A stretch of DNA of 64,000 bases from a virus (lineage: Duplodnaviria; Caudoviricetes): IMG/VR virus record IMGVR_UViG_3300020048_000128, positions 2,465-66,464 of that record; one strand, 5' to 3'. Below are positions 32,992-57,630 of the stretch, one piece after another (position 1 is the first letter of the stretch; every line of letters begins with the position of its first letter). A program made the position numbers and the translations under genes. Under the pieces are notes generated by a model that was not told where the DNA came from, ran no database searches, and worked only from the letters and a program-made list of their open reading frames with translations.

Positions 32992-33905
32992 TATCTAGCT
33001 ATAACGAATACAGTACGTTGAAGAAAATTGTCGTAGGTGATGCCACTTATGCTAACTGGCCTGTGTATGATCCTGTATTCAGAGCTGAAGCTGACCACAC
33101 ACTTTGGAAAGAGACTCCGCTACCAAGTGGGCCTGTTCCGCAGTACATTATTGATGAAGCCAATGAGGATTTGCAGGGCTTGTGTAATATTCTAACACAA
33201 CACGGTGTTGAAGTTGTGCGACCAGCTACGTTCAACTTTCAAACTCACGATGGCATGTACAACTACTGTCCTCGTGATAGATTTATTGTGCATGGCGGTA
33301 CGATCATTGATCCTGCCATGATGTATCCTTGCAGAGACATGGAGTATCAGTGCTACGTTGATATACTGGAGCAAGCAGATTGTATTATTCGCATGCCACG
33401 CAATGCAGGCATGGTGTTGGATGCTGCCAATGTGTTGCGAGTAGCGCGAAACAAATGGTTATTCTTGGAATCTGCTAGTGGTAATCGTGCGGCCTACGAA
33501 TGGTTGTGCGAGCAGTTACCCAAAGTAGAGATTGAATTGTGTAATTTTTATGCTGGCGTGCATATTGACAGTACCATTGTGGCCTTGAACGAAAACACTT
33601 TTGTAGTCAACGGCGCTAGAGTCAACAACACCACTTTGCCCAAAATGTTACAAGATAAAACAATACTGTATGTGAATCAAGTGGTACCGCAAGGGTTTTA
33701 CGAATATCCCTATGCATCAAAATGGATTGCTCTAAACATGTTAAGCATTGATCCCAAAACAGTAATTGTTGACGCCAAACAAACCGAATTGATCCAGACT
33801 CTCAGAAACCAACTTGGCATGACAGTTATTCCACACGAGCTAAGGCATTCTCGTACGCTAGGTGGTGGATTTCACTGTGTTACATTAGATCTTGAGCGCA
33901 ATTGA
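32988..33905 (+). CDS. Amidinotransferase (glycine/inosamine-phosphate amidinotransferase family)
   Basis: SYNEYSTLKKIVVG, CPRD, LDAAN, HIDST, GGGFHCVT (catalytic Asp/His/Cys). Confidence 0.88.
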   Translation: MISSYNEYSTLKKIVVGDATYANWPVYDPVFRAEADHTLWKETPLPSGPVPQYIIDEANEDLQGLCNILTQHGVEVVRPATFNFQTHDGMYNYCPRDRFIVHGGTIIDPAMMYPCRDMEYQCYVDILEQADCIIRMPRNAGMVLDAANVLRVARNKWLFLESASGNRAAYEWLCEQLPKVEIELCNFYAGVHIDSTIVALNENTFVVNGARVNNTTLPKMLQDKTILYVNQVVPQGFYEYPYASKWIALNMLSIDPKTVIVDAKQTELIQTLRNQLGMTVIPHELRHSRTLGGGFHCVTLDLERN

Positions 33906-33930
33906 CCATTATTTGCATTTGCTGTATAAT
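33902..33930 (+). promoter_or_regulatory. sigma70-type promoter
   Basis: TTGACC-17-TATAAT. Confidence 0.8.
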
Positions 33931-33936
33931 ACAAGT

Positions 33937-34959
33937 ATGAATACACCTAAAATTGGCTTTTGTTGCAAGTGGCTTAATGATCCGTCTGAATGCGGCGGCA
34001 TGAAAGTCAATGCAAAAGATCGAGACCTTAACGGGCGTTCAACTACCATGCGCTGGCTCCGTGAGCACAAGAGCGAAGCTGAACAGCGACAATGGGATAT
34101 CATGAATCACAATGCTCGTGCAGCAGTACTCATGATTGAGCGTGTGTCTACCTTGCCCGAAGGTCGACGCATGGTGCGACTGGGCAGCGAAATGCTGCAA
34201 GGCTACACACACGAAGACTGGATTCCGTTCTGGCAGCAGGCTGATGTGCAAGATCACTGTGCAAAAATCTTTGCTCCGGTGGGCGAAACTGCCCGCAGGC
34301 TTGGTGTGCGTCTTAGCTTTCATCCTGGACAATTTTGTGTGCTGGCCAGCGAAAGCGATGAAATTGTTGAACGTAGTATTTTAGAATTTGAGTATCATGC
34401 AGACATGGCTCGTTGGATGGGCTATGGTAAAAATTGGCATGATCACGGATTCAAGATAAATGTACATTTAAGTGGCAAAGGTGGTGTCACAAAATTCCTG
34501 CGAACTCTGGGTCGCCTCACTCCCGAGGCCAGGAACTTAATTACCATCGAAAATGACGAGATGACAAATGGGATCGATTCTACTTTACTTGTGGCTGAGC
34601 ATGTGGCTCTCGTACTGGATGTACACCATCATTGGATCAACTCGGGGGAATATATCAAGCCTGATGATGCTCGCGTTGCAAGGGTTGTTGACTCTTGGCG
34701 TGGCGTTCGTCCTGCTCTTCACTATTCAGTTAGCCGTGAAGATATTCTGGTTGGGCATGATGGAGGAGTTCGTCCAGACCTTGCTGCCCTTCTTGATGCA
34801 GGTTTTAAAAAGCAAAAGCTCCGGGCTCACAGCGATATGATGTGGAACACTGCCTGCAACGACTGGGTCTTGGGATTTTCTCCACAGTTTGACATCCAAT
34901 GCGAAGCCAAAGGCAAGAATATTGCCAGCGAGCAACTTTACACTCAACTCAATGCATGA
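33937..34959 (+). CDS. uvsE: UV damage endonuclease UvsE
   Basis: IGFCC, RLSFHPGQF, NVHLSG, IENDE, LDVHHH, HYSVSR, RAHSD, CEAKGK. Confidence 0.93.
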   Translation: MNTPKIGFCCKWLNDPSECGGMKVNAKDRDLNGRSTTMRWLREHKSEAEQRQWDIMNHNARAAVLMIERVSTLPEGRRMVRLGSEMLQGYTHEDWIPFWQQADVQDHCAKIFAPVGETARRLGVRLSFHPGQFCVLASESDEIVERSILEFEYHADMARWMGYGKNWHDHGFKINVHLSGKGGVTKFLRTLGRLTPEARNLITIENDEMTNGIDSTLLVAEHVALVLDVHHHWINSGEYIKPDDARVARVVDSWRGVRPALHYSVSREDILVGHDGGVRPDLAALLDAGFKKQKLRAHSDMMWNTACNDWVLGFSPQFDIQCEAKGKNIASEQLYTQLNA

Positions 34960-35242
34960 CATTTTTATAAACACACTAGTCTGGATCAAAGATGATTTTC
35001 GTAGCAATCGTGTGCGCTTTGTTATCGAGCTACTTGCTTGGGCTATCAGTATTGGTTGTAGCGTCACAATGGCCCTTACCGTTCCTACGCCGCCTCTCAT
35101 ATACCTTTATCCTGTTTGGATCCTCGGTTGCAGTCTCTATGCTTGGGCTGCATATACTCGTAAAAGCTTTGGCATGATTGCCAACTATATTCTACTAGTA
35201 ACAATTGACTCAGTGGGTCTTGTACGAATGATTGTAGCATAA
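34952..35242 (+). CDS. Small membrane protein
   Basis: Three hydrophobic segments. Confidence 0.7.
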   Translation: MHDIFINTLVWIKDDFRSNRVRFVIELLAWAISIGCSVTMALTVPTPPLIYLYPVWILGCSLYAWAAYTRKSFGMIANYILLVTIDSVGLVRMIVA

Positions 35243-35249
35243 AACAAAA

Positions 35250-35613
35250 ATCAGCGTGACACAAGGTTGGCAGGCCGGTTGATATTCTGCTGGGTAAGCA
35301 TCTGAACGGTGTGCCGATGCCCAATTCTCTTTTCCGCAAGAGACCTCTAACTCACTACCCGCCTCAGTGCGGATGCCTTAAAATGTTGCCCCATGGGTCT
35401 TACGTTTGAGTTGTTGTATACAGGTTGAGTGCAGCGCAAGCTGACTTAGATGCAATATGTCCATGCCAACAACTGACACCGAGGTTGGCTTAAAAATCGT
35501 AGTAGGTAGGGTAAGGTACAGAGCCCAGAGACATGCAATCCCAAACACCTGCGGTCAAGGAGCGAAAGCAACTCAGATGAAAATCTCAATGGCATCTATA
35601 GTGGGTGTCATTG
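35250..35613 (+). ncRNA. Candidate large structured non-coding RNA
   Basis: ORF-free ~460-nt gap with about 10 helices, G.U pairs that favour the plus strand, and GNRA loops (see findings). Confidence 0.55.
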
Positions 35614-35638
35614 TCGCTCTACAATCTAGATGAATTAA

Positions 35639-35703
35639 CTTCGTTCAACGATTCAATAATGCTTCGAACGAAGTGACGAAGCAGATGTAGCGACAGCTAC
35701 ATC
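35639..35703. terminator. Inverted repeats at a convergent boundary (possible terminator)
   Basis: CTTCGTTC/GAACGAAG and GATGTAGC-GACA-GCTACATC. Confidence 0.5.
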
Positions 35704-36406
35704 ACTCCTTGATGGCTACTAGCTTGAGTGGCTCAAGTAGTTTTACGTACATCCATCCAATATCAAATTCCCATAGCTCTCGACTGAGTTTGGGACTTGC
35801 TGGATTTAGGTGATGATTGTTGTGTAATTCTTCACCGCCAATAATGATGCCCCATGGGCTGATATTTCGGCTGTGGTCCTTGGTGTCACCGTTGCGATAT
35901 CCCCACCAGTGTCCTAGCCCGTTGACAACACCTGCTGCCCAGAACGGAATCCAAGCCATCTGTACCAACCAGATCACCATGCCTGTCCATCCAAATACTG
36001 CTAGGTTGAACAAAAAGAGAATGCCAATGCCAAGTCTACTGTGACGAGTGTATACATGTTGCTCCATCCAATCAGCAGGAGTACCAACACCGTATGAATC
36101 AACCATGACTTTGTCTTTTGATGCTGCATGATATAATGCTGCTCCTTTAAATAACACACGCCAAAAACCGTACACATGTGGGCTGTGCGGATCACCTGCA
36201 ACATCTGTGCTACGATGGTGCTTGCGATGTATTGCTACCCACTGTTTTGTTACCATGCCTGTTGTGAGCCAAAGCCAAGCTCGCATAAAGTGTTCTACTG
36301 CAGGATGAAACACTAGAGATCGGTGTGCTTGGGCACGGTGTAAAAACAAAGTCACGCACACTATAGTAATGTGCGTGACTATCAGTGTGTAAATCAAATA
36401 GGTCAT
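35702..36406 (-). CDS. Acyl-CoA/acyl-lipid delta-9-type fatty acid desaturase
   Basis: His boxes HRAQAH, HRKHH, HNNHH; ATG at 36406 overlaps the upstream TAA. Confidence 0.92.
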   Translation of the reverse strand: MTYLIYTLIVTHITIVCVTLFLHRAQAHRSLVFHPAVEHFMRAWLWLTTGMVTKQWVAIHRKHHRSTDVAGDPHSPHVYGFWRVLFKGAALYHAASKDKVMVDSYGVGTPADWMEQHVYTRHSRLGIGILFLFNLAVFGWTGMVIWLVQMAWIPFWAAGVVNGLGHWWGYRNGDTKDHSRNISPWGIIIGGEELHNNHHLNPASPKLSRELWEFDIGWMYVKLLEPLKLVAIKE

Positions 36407-36954
36407 TACATACTTAGCGGTGCCCAGAGCCACACACCTTGACTTATGAGCACCAGACCTAGGCCACCAACAGCCAGTGAACCCCAATACATACGCATGT
36501 TTACTGCAATAATACTAGCACTCAGTAACACAATGGCTAACTGAAACAACATGCCCGAGAACGTAAGCCATGGGCTGTGTGCTCTAGCTTGTTCACGTGC
36601 TTCCTCTTGTGCCCGAGCTTTGGCTAACAGTTCCTTTTTTCCCTCGCCTGTTTCTGGTTCTGACTCGTAACGAGCAATCTTGGCTTCTAGTGTAGCAATG
36701 CGTTCTTTGTCTGACCCCCGTTTGGCTTCTTCCAGTTGCCCTTCTGCTAAAGTTTGCTTGATACTCTTGCTTTGATAAAAGCCATAAGTGTTGGAAGCTT
36801 TTAGCAAGTTGGTTTGTGCTATGCTGCTAAAGTTATTAGCAACATAGGTATTAGCCGCAAGGAACAAGGCCATTATAACAATAACAAGTCCTGCCTTGTC
36901 TTTGATTTGTGCTTCACGCTCTGAGCGTGTGAGTGGTTTCTTTTCTTCTGTCAT
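36406..36954 (-). CDS. DUF4337-like membrane protein
   Basis: TM, then YGFYQSKSIK, coiled coil, LFQLAIVLLSAS TM. Confidence 0.7.
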   Translation of the reverse strand: MTEEKKPLTRSEREAQIKDKAGLVIVIMALFLAANTYVANNFSSIAQTNLLKASNTYGFYQSKSIKQTLAEGQLEEAKRGSDKERIATLEAKIARYESEPETGEGKKELLAKARAQEEAREQARAHSPWLTFSGMLFQLAIVLLSASIIAVNMRMYWGSLAVGGLGLVLISQGVWLWAPLSM

Positions 36955-46257: not shown

Positions 46258-46881
46258 ATGCCAAATTTGGTACCAATCGTAGTCGAGCAAACTGGTAAAG
46301 GTGAGCGCAGTTATGACATCTACAGCCGCCTGCTCAAAGACCGTGTGATCATGCTGGACACTGACGTAAACGAGCACACAGCTAGTTTGTTGGTTGCTCA
46401 GTTGTTGTTTCTTGAAAGCGAAAACCCAGACAAGGATATTAGCTTGTATATCAATAGCCCAGGCGGTGTTGTGACTGCAGGTTTGGCTATATACGATACT
46501 ATGCAATTTATCAAGTGCGATGTTCAAACCATTGTGATGGGCCAAGCAGCCAGCATGGGGTCATTGCTGGCCCAAGCAGGTGCACCGGGCAAGCGTTTTG
46601 TATTGCCTGAAAGCCGCACCATGATCCATCGTGTTAGTTCAGGTACTCCGGGCACTCGTGGTAGCGTACATGTGCAAGATTTGCAATTTGAAGACAGCAA
46701 ACGCAGCTTTGAAGAATCAATTCGTGTGAACAAGCGCTTGACCGAACTGTATGTTAAGCACAACACAGCAGGCAAAACTTATGACGAACTGTATGAGACC
46801 ATGAAGTTTGATACTTTCCTGAGCGCACAGCAAGCAGTTGATTTTGGTTTAGCTGACAAGATTGTGGAGAACCGTGCCTAA
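46258..46881 (+). CDS. clpP: ATP-dependent Clp protease proteolytic subunit ClpP
   Basis: [37 protein letters not shown]. Confidence 0.96.
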
Positions 46882-48163
46882 CCCAGCAGTATTCTGCAAT
46901 ACGCCCTGGTACGAGCTGCACATCTATTGGGATGGCAGCTTGGGTATCTGCTGTCAAGAAGATCATAAACTCTATTCAGGCAACGAATACAATATTGCTA
47001 CCATGACTATTGCAGACTGGTTTCAATCTGAGCCAGTGCGCGATTTTAGAAAACGCATTCTTAAGAATTCACACCTTAGCGAATGCCGGCGTTGTTACGC
47101 AGAAGAGGCTGCAGGCGCAACTAGTCGCCGTTTACGAAGTAATCAAAAAAGTGTAATATTCAAACAGGCGTTTCACGAAAGCTTTGAACAAAGCCCCGGC
47201 CGTCAACATTTTGATGACTCGGGCAATACTGATACAATGCCAATTGATTTGCACATTGATCTTGGGAACTTCTGTAATCTAGCTTGCAAAATGTGCAACG
47301 CACAAGCATCTAGTCGTATTGCAGTGCAAGAAGTCAAATGGGGTATTGAGTCTAGCCGGCCATTTGTAGGTAGTAACTGGACTAAAGATCAAACAGTATG
47401 GGACAGTTTCAAGCAGCAGTTGTTGGCTATACCTAGATTGAACAACATTCATTTCATGGGCGGAGAAACCCTGCTAACTGATCGCTTTGAAGATCTGGTG
47501 GATACTTTGATTGCGCACAAGCGATTTGACATATGTCTAAGCTTTGTTACCAACGGTACAGTTTTCAAACCAATGCTGTTGGCCAAGCTGGCGAACTTCA
47601 AGCGAGTGGGCATTGAAGTCAGCATGGAAACAGTAAGTGAGCATAATTCATATGTTCGCCAAGGTACCGACACCGCTCTGGTACTGAGCAACATTGATCG
47701 TTACCAAGCACAGTGCAACGGGTCCAGCATTACTGTGACCATTCGACCAGCAGTGAGCGCATTGACTATTGGTCACTTTGGTGGTTTGTTGGAATATGCA
47801 TTGCGCAAGAAACTTGCAATCAAATCATTGCTGGTAACCACTCCTGGCTTTTTGGATGCACGGATGTTGCCCGCTGAAGTTAAAATTCAATACCTATCCC
47901 AGTACCAGGATATATTGCAGCAGTTAAATGATCTTGAAATACCCAACGGTTTTAACACCAGCGACCCCAACAACTACCGTTTGGTTGTGAAGGAACAGGC
48001 ACAAATGTGCATCAACTTGTTGAACAGTACACTGCCCGATCAGTATCAACAACTGCAACAACAATTGGTAGAGCATTGTAAAAAGTGGGACAAGGTCTAC
48101 CAATACAATGCTAGAACATTGTACCCTGAACTGCAGGTACTATGGGATCAATATGGCTATTGA
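46874..48163 (+). CDS. Radical SAM protein with N-terminal SPASM/twitch-like domain
   Basis: FCNTPW...ICC...CRRC; CNLACKMC; HFMGGET; probable GTG start. Confidence 0.9.
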
Positions 48164-56529: not shown

Positions 56530-57630
56530 ATGAGCTATCTATTTACAAGTGAAAGTGTGTCAGAAGGACACCCTGATAAAATTGCTGATGCAATTTCAGA
56601 CGCAGTGCTTGATTTGGTCATGGCCAAGCAAGACCCTGCATTACGATGTGCATGTGAAACGCTAGTCACTACCAATCGTGTAATCATTGCCGGGGAATAC
56701 AAAGGTATCTTGCATGAAGCAGAAGTTGAAAGTGCTGTGCGTAGAGTTATAAAGAATGTGGGCTATGAGCAAGCAGGCTTTGACTGGCGCACAGTTGAGA
56801 TCACCAACTTGTTGCACGGGCAAAGTGCCGACATTGCACTAGGTACTGATAACTTTGGAGCAGGTGACCAAGGCTTGATGTTCGGTTATGCCTGCAACGA
56901 AACAGACAACTACATGCCCTCAGCAATTTACTGGAGTCATCGTATTGTTGAACGACTAGCACAAGCTCGAAAAGATGGTGTGTTAACATTTCTGGGCCCC
57001 GACGCCAAGAGTCAAGTCACCTTTGAATACAACGATGACGGTACACCAAACCGTATTGCCAAAGTGGTTTGTAGCACACAACACTCAGAAGAAGCCGGTA
57101 TTGAAACTGTGCGTAACGTAGTTGGTGCGTTTATCAAAAGCGTTTTACCCGGAGAATATCTTGATAGCAATACTGACTTCTTTATCAATCCTACTGGTCG
57201 ATTTGTTATTGGCGGTCCCGATGGTGATACTGGGCTTACTGGGCGCAAAATTATTGTTGATACCTATGGTGGCTATAGCCCTCATGGTGGGGGAGCCTTC
57301 AGTGGTAAAGATCCTACTAAGGTTGATCGAAGTGCTGCCTACATGATGCGCTACATTGCCAAGAACATTGTGGCAAGTGGCCAGGCACCTTGGGCCACTT
57401 GCCAAATCAGCTATGCAATTGGCATGGCCCAGCCCATGAGTTTCTATGTGGAGTGCAGCAACAAACAACTAGCACGTGAGTTAACTGAATTGATCCCTAC
57501 TATAGTAGATTTAACCCCCGCAGGTATTATCAAACGTTTTGACTTATTCCGTCCTATCTATAGTAGTACTACAAACTATGGACATTTTGGTAAAGCAGAC
57601 TTACCTTGGGAACGTCTGGACTTGTTCTGA
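56530..57630 (+). CDS. metK: S-adenosylmethionine synthetase
   Basis: FTSESVSEGHPDK, GAGDQG, GLTGRKIIVDTYGG, GGGAFSGKD. Confidence 0.97.
   Translation: MSYLFTSESVSEGHPDKIADAISDAVLDLVMAKQDPALRCACETLVTTNRVIIAGEYKGILHEAEVESAVRRVIKNVGYEQAGFDWRTVEITNLLHGQSADIALGTDNFGAGDQGLMFGYACNETDNYMPSAIYWSHRIVERLAQARKDGVLTFLGPDAKSQVTFEYNDDGTPNRIAKVVCSTQHSEEAGIETVRNVVGAFIKSVLPGEYLDSNTDFFINPTGRFVIGGPDGDTGLTGRKIIVDTYGGYSPHGGGAFSGKDPTKVDRSAAYMMRYIAKNIVASGQAPWATCQISYAIGMAQPMSFYVECSNKQLARELTELIPTIVDLTPAGIIKRFDLFRPIYSSTTNYGHFGKADLPWERLDLF

What the first reader, a model, noticed from the sequence alone, without database searches (positions are those of the whole stretch)
35243..35703. Large ORF-free interval folds into a multi-domain RNA (candidate novel phage ncRNA)
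Seen: the largest non-coding gap in an otherwise tightly packed window. It contains many complementary pairs: AUCAGC 35250-55/GUUGAU 35278-83; GCAUC 35298-302/GAUGC 35316-20; UCUCUU 35326-31/AAGAGA 35338-43, whose loop UCCGC can pair with GCGGA 35369-73 (pseudoknot). A long-range 10-bp helix 35406-15/35567-76 encloses CAGC-GCAA-GCUG (35432-43), GCCAAC/GUUGGC (35465-70/35484-89), GUAGGU/ACCUGC (35502-07/35547-52) and GGGU/GCCC. A 12-bp hairpin spans 35587-35613. G.U pairs and GNRA loops favour plus-strand RNA over DNA cruciforms. Knowledge: it lacks the hallmark motifs of tRNA, tmRNA, RNase P (GAGGAAAGUCC) and group I/II introns. Inference: an undescribed large phage ncRNA, in the spirit of ROOL/GOLLD-type RNAs.
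Basis: partly seen in the sequence, partly recalled or inferred. Interest (0 to 1): 0.8.

Follow-up and report, generated by a model that had tools for sequence, protein, structure and literature searches.

The report
Twin-box structured RNA gene, giant phage
The gene-free gap holds a real gene for a large, doubly knotted non-coding RNA of an uncultured giant lake phage; it is a divergent extra copy of a poorly catalogued phage RNA that carries the same 7-letter word twice, and its job is still unknown.

Summary
The 460-nt gap (35243-35703) between two convergent genes of a jumbo-phage fragment is a + strand RNA gene. Folding energy alone is marginal (z -1.92), but about 88 homologous loci in IMG/VR, metagenomes and two MAG contigs show strong covariation: 517 double-change cells against 179 ± 13 in shuffles, 0 of 500 reaching it. 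Its 10-bp long-range helix, its pseudoknot and its first hairpin do not. The supported fold has a three-hairpin head, two pseudoknots, an almost invariant core, and a 3' module. In that module two unpaired copies of AGAUGAA (35575-81, 35628-34) flank a hairpin.

The two words change in step across the family and have no internal complement. The 3' module is exchanged as a cassette between lineages.

No Rfam family matches this locus. The head is nevertheless a remote relative of Polynucleobacter-1 (RF01718). True RF01718 hits carry the same twin-box tail, and two related genomes hold both an RF01718-type copy (in G001 behind a GIY-YIG gene) and this type.

This scan has found the twin-box family many times on other DNA.

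Function is unknown. My best guess is a scaffold showing one word twice to a two-sited reader.

The parts
35205..35232 (+). Candidate sigma-70-type promoter TTGACT-16 nt-AATGAT inside the end of the upstream ORF. The predicted start is near 35239.
   Evidence: Consensus scan only. Relatives with other upstream contexts carry TTGTGA-N17-TATACT or TATAAT 12-25 nt before the conserved start. Not shown experimentally.
35258..35425 (+). Head domain. P1 5' strand AGGUUG 35264-69. Hairpins: Pa 35270-73/35287-90; Pb 35292-93/35321-22 with 35298-302/35316-20; Pc 35326-31/35338-43. Long-range helix Pd 35348-54/35407-13 encloses Pe 35359-62/35369-72 and Pg 35382-85/35403-06 with 35388-91/35395-98. Pseudoknot Pf 35375-78/35422-25.
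   Evidence: Covariation counts: Pa 100% paired with 3 pairs double-changed; Pd 98% paired with 6 of 7 double-changed; Pf 99% paired with one pair U-A to C-G in 9 sequences. Same architecture as RF01718.
35426..35448 (+). Optional GNRA-capped hairpin Ph (35426-30/35444-48 and 35432-35/35440-43, loop GCAA).
   Evidence: 96% paired with 5 pairs double-changed. The loop stays GNRA. The hairpin is missing in 9 of 47 sequences.
35449..35555 (+). Nearly invariant core. Pi 35449-53 and 35457-61 with 35530-40. Pj 35465-70/35484-89 with invariant loop UGACACCGA. Invariant junction UUAAAAAUCGUAG. Pk 35509-12/35523-26 with invariant loop AAGGUACAGA. Pseudoknot Pn 35499-507/35547-55.
   Evidence: Pi inner and Pj are 98% paired with every or nearly every pair double-changed. 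Pn is 97% paired with G-C to A-U in 9 sequences and U-A to C-G in 12. The search pattern drawn from this core retrieved all homologues.
35556..35640 (+). Swappable 3' twin-box module. Pm 35559-65/35614-20 encloses box 1 and hairpin Pl 35590-97/35603-10. CAAUCU 35622-27 is the possible P1 3' strand. Box 2 follows.
   Evidence: Pm has a clade-specific sequence (GGAGCGA/UCGCUCU against GUGUGGC/GCCNCAC). Pl is 98.7% paired. Cassette exchange: L200, L194 and L211 are 92-97% identical to one clade up to about 35555 and 88-95% identical to another clade after it, with flanks unchanged.
35575..35581 (+). Box 1: the word AGAUGAA, preceded by CAACUC and unpaired in the consensus fold.
35628..35634 (+). 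Box 2: the same word AGAUGAA, preceded by CAAUCU, 53 nt after box 1.
   Evidence: Same-index positions of the two boxes have normalised mutual information 1.0 (35575/35628, 35576/35629, 35578/35631, 35579/35632). No other column matches this.
35639..35703 (+). Variable tail. Hairpin 35639-46/35666-73. Tandem ACGAAG-UG-ACGAAG at 35668-81. Terminal hairpin GAUGUAGC-GACA-GCUACAUC at 35684-703, which overlaps the desaturase stop codon by 2 nt.
   Evidence: A tandem (A/G)GCGA(A/G) pair and a terminal hairpin recur in both paralogue types.
35722..35745 (+). Candidate intrinsic terminator for the RNA (7-bp hairpin then AGUUUUAC), lying inside the last codons of the opposite-strand desaturase gene.
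   Evidence: Consensus scan only.

Best explanation
What it is (about 95% sure). It is a stand-alone, + strand gene for a roughly 450-500-nt trans-acting structured RNA of a freshwater jumbo phage estimated at about 350 kb. It is a divergent paralogue of the 'twin-box' RNA, whose canonical form has the Polynucleobacter-1 (RF01718) motif as its head.

How it is built (shown). A constant body spans 35258-35555. It has a three-hairpin head, two pseudoknots and an almost invariant core. A separate 3' module spans 35556-35640. That module places two single-stranded copies of a lineage-specific 7-nt word (here AGAUGAA), each behind CAA-YYY, on either side of a helix and hairpin.

How it most likely works (inferred, about 35%). 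The body is a rigid scaffold or effector. The 3' module is a specificity cassette that shows the same word twice to one two-sited reader, most simply a dimeric sequence-specific RNA-binding protein. Together they would form an RNP that the phage uses during infection. The word must stay identical in both sites because one reader reads both, and exchanging the cassette would re-target the RNA.

The partner and the cellular process are not known.
For: - Real RNA, + strand. About 88 loci are homologous over 400-470 nt.
- Covariation on 47 sequences at mean 69% identity: 87.4% of cells are paired against 77.5% in shuffles; 517 double-change cells against 179 ± 13; covariation score 0.329 against 0.151; 0 of 500 shuffles reach these values; slid controls are <= 0.11.
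- GNRA loops and G-U pairs fit only the + strand.
- Stand-alone gene: the upstream and downstream genes differ among loci, and promoter-like sites lie just upstream.
- Paralogy: G001 and G032 each hold an RF01718 hit above cut-off (112 and 79 bits) at another place, in addition to the window-type copy. In G001 the RF01718-type copy follows a SegE-like GIY-YIG gene (the gene before G032's copy was not checked). The RF01718-type copies have CUC-word and UCU-word boxes 48 nt apart.
- One reader for both words: five or more independent parallel changes (AG to GG, AG to AA, final A to G, AUG to CGA or CAA). Same-index normalised MI is 1.0. There is no complementary partner inside the RNA or within the fetched flanks (up to about 10 kb, usually less).
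- Cassette behaviour.
- The vocabulary is restricted, R-S-(AUA/AUG/CGA/CAA)-A-N in about 140 loci. That fits a protein site better than a free guide.
Against: - No partner protein was found. No neighbouring gene is conserved.
- Two paralogues in one genome carry different words (G032: GGAUGAAG and AGCGAAU). A protein reader would then need two specificities.
- Part of the in-step change is cassette exchange rather than independent co-change.
- Transcription of this exact locus is not shown. RNA-library contigs cover only relatives at 85-95% identity, and they also cover the flanking genes.
- The closing helix P1 has no covariation.
Confidence: 0.4

Rival explanations
1. The words are short guides that base-pair with a nucleic acid present twice, or with two molecules. 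One example is a pair of tRNA anticodon loops, read like a T-box specifier: a variable triplet followed by an invariant A that would face U33.
For: - The variable centre of the word behaves like a triplet followed by a constant A: AUG, AUA, CGA and CAA, each followed by A.
- In several relatives the RNA gene sits beside permuted tmRNA genes and tRNA arrays.
- G032 encodes tRNAs that could read its two words: Met-CAU, Arg-ACG and Arg-UCG.
- Two paralogues with different words in one genome are easy to explain for a guide.
Against: - Only four triplets were seen in about 140 loci.
- Positions outside the triplet also change in step.
- G032 has at least 24 tRNAs, so cognate tRNAs are expected by chance.
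- Neither the words nor their complements are enriched in the 349-kb genome of G032: 16 observed against 26 expected, and 38 against 41. They are not enriched in the window either.
- No T-box or other tRNA-binding family matches.
Confidence: 0.2
2. The locus is a replication element. Either the RNA is a structured pre-primer (ColE1 RNA II-like or T4 R-loop-like), or the two words act as iteron-like DNA sites spaced 53 bp apart, about five helical turns.
For: - Identical, lineage-specific direct repeats at a helical-phase spacing resemble iterons (spacing 48-57 bp).
- Earlier agents of this scan guessed a replication role. That is a lead, not evidence.
Against: - Helices between and around the boxes keep pairing through compensatory changes, so selection acts on the RNA.
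- The locus sits at a convergent gene junction, and cumulative GC skew shows no turn there.
- One genome has two copies at distant places.
- No AT-rich unwinding element or initiator gene is adjacent.
Confidence: 0.1
3. It is a self-assembling 'ornate' RNA like ROOL, GOLLD or OLE. The two identical words would form two-fold symmetric non-canonical contacts (tandem sheared G-A type), either within one molecule or between copies.
For: - Size, pseudoknots, invariant loops and phage origin resemble RNAs shown to form RNA-only assemblies (bioRxiv 10.1101/2024.12.08.627333, abstract only).
- Two identical strands can pair antiparallel in a symmetric purine-rich loop: for AGAUGAA this gives G-A, A-G, U-U, G-A, A-G.
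Against: - Antiparallel contact predicts covariation between position i and position 8-i, not the strict same-index identity that is observed.
- Words such as AGCAAAC lack G-A steps.
- There is no sequence or model similarity to those families.
Confidence: 0.1
4. It is not an RNA gene. It would be a decayed protein gene, or only the shared terminator region of two convergent genes.
For: It lies between convergent genes, and hairpins at 35684-703 and 35722-38 could end both transcripts.
Against: - The same 400-470-nt element occurs in many unrelated gene contexts.
- Changes are compensatory in helices rather than codon-periodic, and 1-2-nt indels are frequent.
- No ORF longer than 58 aa lies inside it.
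Confidence: 0.02

Closest known systems
Polynucleobacter-1 RNA motif (Rfam RF01718; Weinberg et al. 2010, PMC2864571)
   Same: The head has the same architecture: a hairpin with a GGCC-type loop, a second hairpin, a third hairpin after AAUUC and before GACU, then a long-range helix enclosing CACUAYCC...GGAYG. True RF01718 loci continue into a roughly 450-nt RNA. That RNA has CUC-word and UCU-word twin boxes, a tandem GAGCGA/AGCGAA tail motif and a terminal hairpin. The habitat also matches: fresh water and phage contigs.
   Different: The window's RNA does not match the model at all (no hit at E <= 10). Its central core differs (UGACACCGA, AAGGUACAGAG against GAGGUACCGGA..ACCGCCUCUG). It is a second, stand-alone copy with no GIY-YIG gene before it. 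The Rfam model covers only 141 nt, and the paper lists the motif in a table as a possible cis-regulator with no function.
Large 'ornate' RNAs of phages and bacteria (ROOL RF03087, GOLLD RF01998, OLE, raiA)
   Same: A large, multi-pseudoknotted RNA with strong covariation, phage-borne, sometimes next to tRNA genes, and of unknown biochemical role.
   Different: No similarity in sequence or model. It is smaller (about 450 nt). As far as I know (own knowledge, not tested here), twin identical words and an exchangeable 3' cassette are not features of those families.
T-box leader RNAs (RF00230)
   Same: Only an analogy: a variable triplet followed by an invariant A in an unpaired stretch, displayed by a structured RNA.
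   Different: No model match. It is not a leader of any gene, it has two identical 'specifiers', and it has no discriminator or terminator-antiterminator switch.

Membership tests
Polynucleobacter-1 (RF01718) | Covariance-model score at or above the gathering threshold (37 bits) | tested here: not met
   No hit in the window at gathering, nor at E <= 10 in 35100-35850. None in the whole 66-kb record. Family member L212 reaches 24.2 bits, E = 0.0034.
Polynucleobacter-1 (RF01718) | Head architecture: three hairpins, then a long-range helix enclosing CACUAYCC ... GGAYG | tested here: met
   Window helices Pa, Pb, Pc, Pd and Pe with CACUACCC (35353-60) and GGAUG (35371-75). Covariation. Model-to-sequence alignment of relative L212.
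Twin-box phage RNA (informal family of this scan; full-length form of RF01718 loci) | Two unpaired identical 7-nt words behind CUC and UCU, 48-57 nt apart, flanking a hairpin in the 3' domain | tested here: met
   AGAUGAA at 35575-81 and 35628-34. The same layout follows true RF01718 hits in L252, L253, L256 and L257 and in about 70 of 114 further loci.
ROOL / GOLLD / OLE / raiA | Match to the family covariance model | tested here: not met
   no match even at E <= 10.
RNase P RNA, tmRNA, group I / II introns | Family covariance model or ARAGORN call; for RNase P also the P4 motif GAGGAAAGUCC (own knowledge of that family); for introns also flanking exons | tested here: not met
   The same tools do find tmRNA and tRNAs next to relatives, so they work on this material. 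No split gene flanks the element.
Replication origin | Skew turn, unwinding element, initiator sites, initiation mapped | tested here: inconclusive
   No GC-skew turn, and the locus is at a convergent junction. Initiation itself cannot be tested with these tools.

The most novel reading that the evidence does not exclude
The 3' twin-box cassette is a programmable, two-sited recognition device on a constant pseudoknotted effector body. That would be a new class of phage RNA, a guide or ribozyme-like RNP, which reads a 7-nt target twice and is re-targeted in nature by cassette exchange. Jumbo phages would carry two such RNAs with different words.
Probability: 0.2. Interest if true: 0.85.

Novelty: new variant of a known kind. 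Interest (0 to 1): 0.62.

Why it matters
Few large, multi-pseudoknotted RNAs with strong covariation are known, and those that have been explained turned out to be ribozymes, RNP cores or self-assembling cages.

This one is common in uncultured aquatic jumbo phage contigs (earlier notes of this scan also report it in T4-like phages), yet it is invisible to Rfam at this locus. Its only catalogued piece is a 141-nt motif of unknown role from 2010.

Two findings give a concrete handle for experiments. First, the two identical words mutate in step. Second, the whole 3' module is exchanged between lineages while the body stays constant.

It also shows that RF01718 describes only the head of a much larger RNA, and that jumbo phages can keep two diverged copies.

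Tried and rejected
- Rfam at gathering and at E <= 10 on the locus: nothing useful. ARAGORN found nothing.
- blastn of the locus against 50,697 GenBank phage records: no match.
- RF01718 on Escherichia phage 121Q and phage NCTB: no match.
- BLAST of the RNA against 50 related records: only 2 hold this type.
- Conserved neighbour gene: none. Upstream ORFs fall into many unrelated clusters.
- A partner complementary to the word, inside the RNA or within the fetched flanks of each locus: none.
- Enrichment of the word or its complement in the window or in the 349-kb genome G032: none. Extra CTCAGCGAA hits in G032 lie in coding sequence.
- tRNA test: G032 has at least 24 tRNAs, so the test is uninformative.
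- GC skew: no turn.
- Public RNA libraries: only small shares. Contigs from two freshwater metatranscriptome studies, at 85-95% identity, lie on 35213-35755 and 35309-35530. Flanking genes are covered too, and contigs cannot show ends or exclude DNA. This is not evidence of expression of this locus.
- Resemblances to RNase P (UAGAUGAAU, UAAGGUAC) and to the group I R element (CAGAGAC), recalled from memory, were dropped. These stretches either vary or pair locally in the family, and the models do not match.
- No covariance model of my own was built. The full RNA exceeds the size that can be calibrated, so nhmmer profiles were used instead.

Full report
**Setting.** The window is most of a 66-kb IMG/VR virus record that CheckV rates 19% complete, which implies a genome of about 350 kb. 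Its genes fit a jumbo phage: a DnaB-like helicase, both ribonucleotide reductase subunits, ClpX, an ATP-dependent ligase, MetK and a radical-SAM enzyme. The finding lies between convergent genes. A UvdE gene (33892-34959) and a 117-aa membrane ORF ending at 35242 lie on the + strand. A fatty-acid desaturase gene (35702-36487) followed by DUF4337 lies on the - strand.

**Is it more than chance?** On its own the sequence is only suggestive. The + strand folds at z = -1.92 and the - strand at z = +1.01. Rfam gives nothing at gathering, and only noise at E <= 10. ARAGORN finds nothing.

The decisive evidence comes from relatives. Loci fetched through the flanking proteins gave two copies at about 80% identity. 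These already showed compensatory changes (GCCAAC/GUUGGC to GAGAAC/GUUCUC) and a GNRA loop kept as GCAA, GCGA or GUGA. A gapped pattern from the invariant core (UGACACCGA ... GUAAGGUACAGAG) then retrieved 30 IMG/VR loci, 56 metagenome loci and 2 MAG contigs. nhmmer aligns 400-470 nt in almost all of them.

On 47 non-redundant sequences (mean identity 69%, minimum 51%) I tested a structure of 99 pairs in 20 helices. It has 87.4% of cells paired against 77.5% in shuffles. It has 517 double-change cells against 179 ± 13. Its covariation score is 0.329 against 0.151. None of 500 shuffles reaches these values, and all slid controls score <= 0.11. Four helices score low there (Pb inner, Pc, Pe, Pm; 45-62% paired). 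In those helices the clades use different sequences and MAFFT misregisters them. Read by eye, each clade forms them.

**Anatomy (window coordinates).**
- Head, 35258-35425: hairpins Pa, Pb and Pc, then the long-range helix Pd (35348-54/35407-13), which encloses Pe and Pg. Pseudoknot Pf (35375-78/35422-25) crosses Pd.
- An optional GNRA hairpin Ph, 35426-48.
- Core, 35449-35555. Helix Pi encloses Pj (invariant loop UGACACCGA), an invariant junction and the invariant hairpin Pk (loop AAGGUACAGA). Pseudoknot Pn (35499-507/35547-55) crosses Pi and has two compensatory pairs.
- 3' module, 35556-35640. Helix Pm encloses box 1 and hairpin Pl, followed by CAAUCU and box 2.
- Tail, 35639-35703: a local hairpin, a tandem ACGAAG-UG-ACGAAG, and a terminal hairpin.
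- AGGUUG at 35264-69 can pair with CAAUCU at 35622-27 to close the molecule. These bases barely vary, so this helix is unproven.
Its long-range 10-bp helix, its pseudoknot and its first hairpin are not.

**The twin boxes.** AGAUGAA occurs at 35575-81 and again at 35628-34. Each copy is unpaired and sits behind CAA-YYY. Across the family the word is AGAUGAA, GGAUGAA, AGAUGAG, AGCGAA(U/A), AACGAA, AGCGAG, AGCAAA(C/A) or AACAAA, and both boxes carry the same form. There are rare one-letter exceptions: L206, L217, and the UAAG form of box 1 in one clade. Same-index positions have normalised mutual information 1.0, and no other column of the RNA does. No complement lies nearby. So the two boxes are read in the same sense by the same kind of reader, or are kept alike by some other constraint. 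They do not pair with a third segment of the RNA.

**A swappable module.** L200, L194 and L211 are 92-97% identical to the L201/L165 clade from the 5' end to about 35555. In the 3' module they are only 52-61% identical to that clade, but 88-95% identical there to the L251/L185/L167 clade. For L200 and L194 the fetched flanks resemble the first clade and never the second; L200's downstream flank matches it only from about 880 nt on, and L194's downstream flank matched neither (L211's flanks were not compared). The module, with both boxes and Pm, therefore moves as a cassette. This means that some in-step changes are single exchange events. The single-letter parallel changes (AG to GG, AG to AA, A to G) are not.

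**Relation to what is known.** A look-up of this scan's earlier notes showed that the same 'twin-box' family has been reported many times on other DNA, with RF01718 named as closest. I tested this myself.
- Family member L212 matches RF01718 over the full 141 positions at 24.2 bits, E = 0.0034 for the 600-nt stretch. The alignment maps Pa, Pb, Pc, Pd and Pe one to one.
- True RF01718 hits (79-112 bits) in a Polynucleobacter MAG and in two related jumbo-phage records continue into RNAs with CUC-word and UCU-word boxes, the tail motif and a terminal hairpin.
- G001 (300 kb) and G032 (349 kb, 97% complete) each hold both an RF01718-type copy and a window-type copy about 210-220 kb away. In G001 the RF01718-type copy sits behind a Rad50-like gene and a SegE-like GIY-YIG gene.
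- The words differ between the two copies: G032 has GGAUGAAG and AGCGAAU, and G001 has GGAUGAA and AGAUGAA.
- RF01718-type copies occur in 6 of 30 related records and in 3 of 6 that are at least 90% complete. Window-type copies occur in 2 of 50. Both are accessory.
- A scan for the canonical core found more than 120 loci. Their words are GGAUAAU, GCAUAAU, AGAUAAU, AGAUGAA, GGAUGAU and GGAUGAA.
- The literature I could search mentions Polynucleobacter-1 only once, in a table of the 2010 paper. A 2023 catalogue of more than 10,000 candidate viral RNAs (PMC10690425) may contain pieces of this RNA, but its text does not describe it.

**Function.** Nothing here fixes it. The restricted vocabulary, R-S-(AUA/AUG/CGA/CAA)-A-N, together with strict identity and cassette exchange, leads me to favour a scaffold that presents one word twice to a two-sited reader, most simply a dimeric protein (about 35%).

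A nucleic-acid target is the main rival (about 20%). A codon-like triplet plus A facing tRNA U33 is the most concrete version. It fits the nearness to tRNA arrays and permuted tmRNA genes in several relatives. It could not be discriminated, because G032 has at least 24 tRNAs and the words are not enriched in its genome.

A replication role, guessed by earlier agents, gets no support at this locus: it is a convergent junction with no skew turn. Symmetric self-assembly predicts a different covariation pattern from the one seen.

**Expression.** Contigs from two freshwater metatranscriptome studies, 85-95% identical, lie on the RNA. They also lie on the neighbouring genes, and they are contigs rather than reads. 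I do not count this as evidence.

**Verdict.** This is a real, large, doubly pseudoknotted phage RNA gene. It is a divergent, stand-alone paralogue of the twin-box / Polynucleobacter-1 RNA. Its function is unknown, and it offers an unusually testable feature.

Noticed in passing
L171:2864-3310, L245:1592-1942, L212:2837-3166; tRNA arrays in L197, L207, L238, L191: In several relatives the RNA gene lies 0.7-5 kb from a permuted (two-piece) tmRNA gene and from long tRNA arrays, so these phages have an 'RNA gene island'.
   Followed up: partly
L394:12941-15940 and L395:1148-9337 (G032, last 25 kb of the record): The 349-kb relative G032 encodes at least 24 tRNAs and a permuted tmRNA with tag ANDSQFALAA, packed at one end of the record.
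   Followed up: partly
Upstream leaders of L207, L184, L245, L247, L171, L190, L197, L238 (75 nt before the conserved start): Between a TATAAT-like hexamer and the RNA's conserved start there are three copies of (U)AGGC(A/U) spaced about 10 nt apart. These are absent from the window's copy, and their role is unknown.
   Followed up: no
window 35668-35681; L256 about 1890-1905; L253 and the 'CGA' clade tails: A tandem pair of (A/G)(A/G)CGA(A/G) motifs (ACGAAG-UG-ACGAAG here; GAGCGAUAGCGAA in canonical copies) is kept in the tail of both paralogue types, whatever the box word.
   Followed up: partly
L194 (MAG 'uncultured Bacteroidetes', contig CAINBK010000358.1) and L195 (MAG Polynucleobacter sp., JBBAKF010000115.1); G051:C80 and C51: Short contigs carrying this phage RNA are binned into bacterial MAGs. 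The Polynucleobacter MAG also holds two RF01718-type copies. These may be mis-binned phage contigs or a host hint (Polynucleobacter).
   Followed up: partly
window 35702-36487, 33892-34959, 56530-57630, 46862-48163: The phage fragment carries a fatty-acid desaturase, a UvdE UV endonuclease, a SAM synthetase and a radical-SAM/SPASM enzyme. These are auxiliary metabolic and repair genes.
   Followed up: no
window 35722-35745: A + strand terminator-like hairpin with a U-run lies inside the last codons of the - strand desaturase gene, so the RNA's transcript probably overlaps the end of the opposite gene.
   Followed up: no
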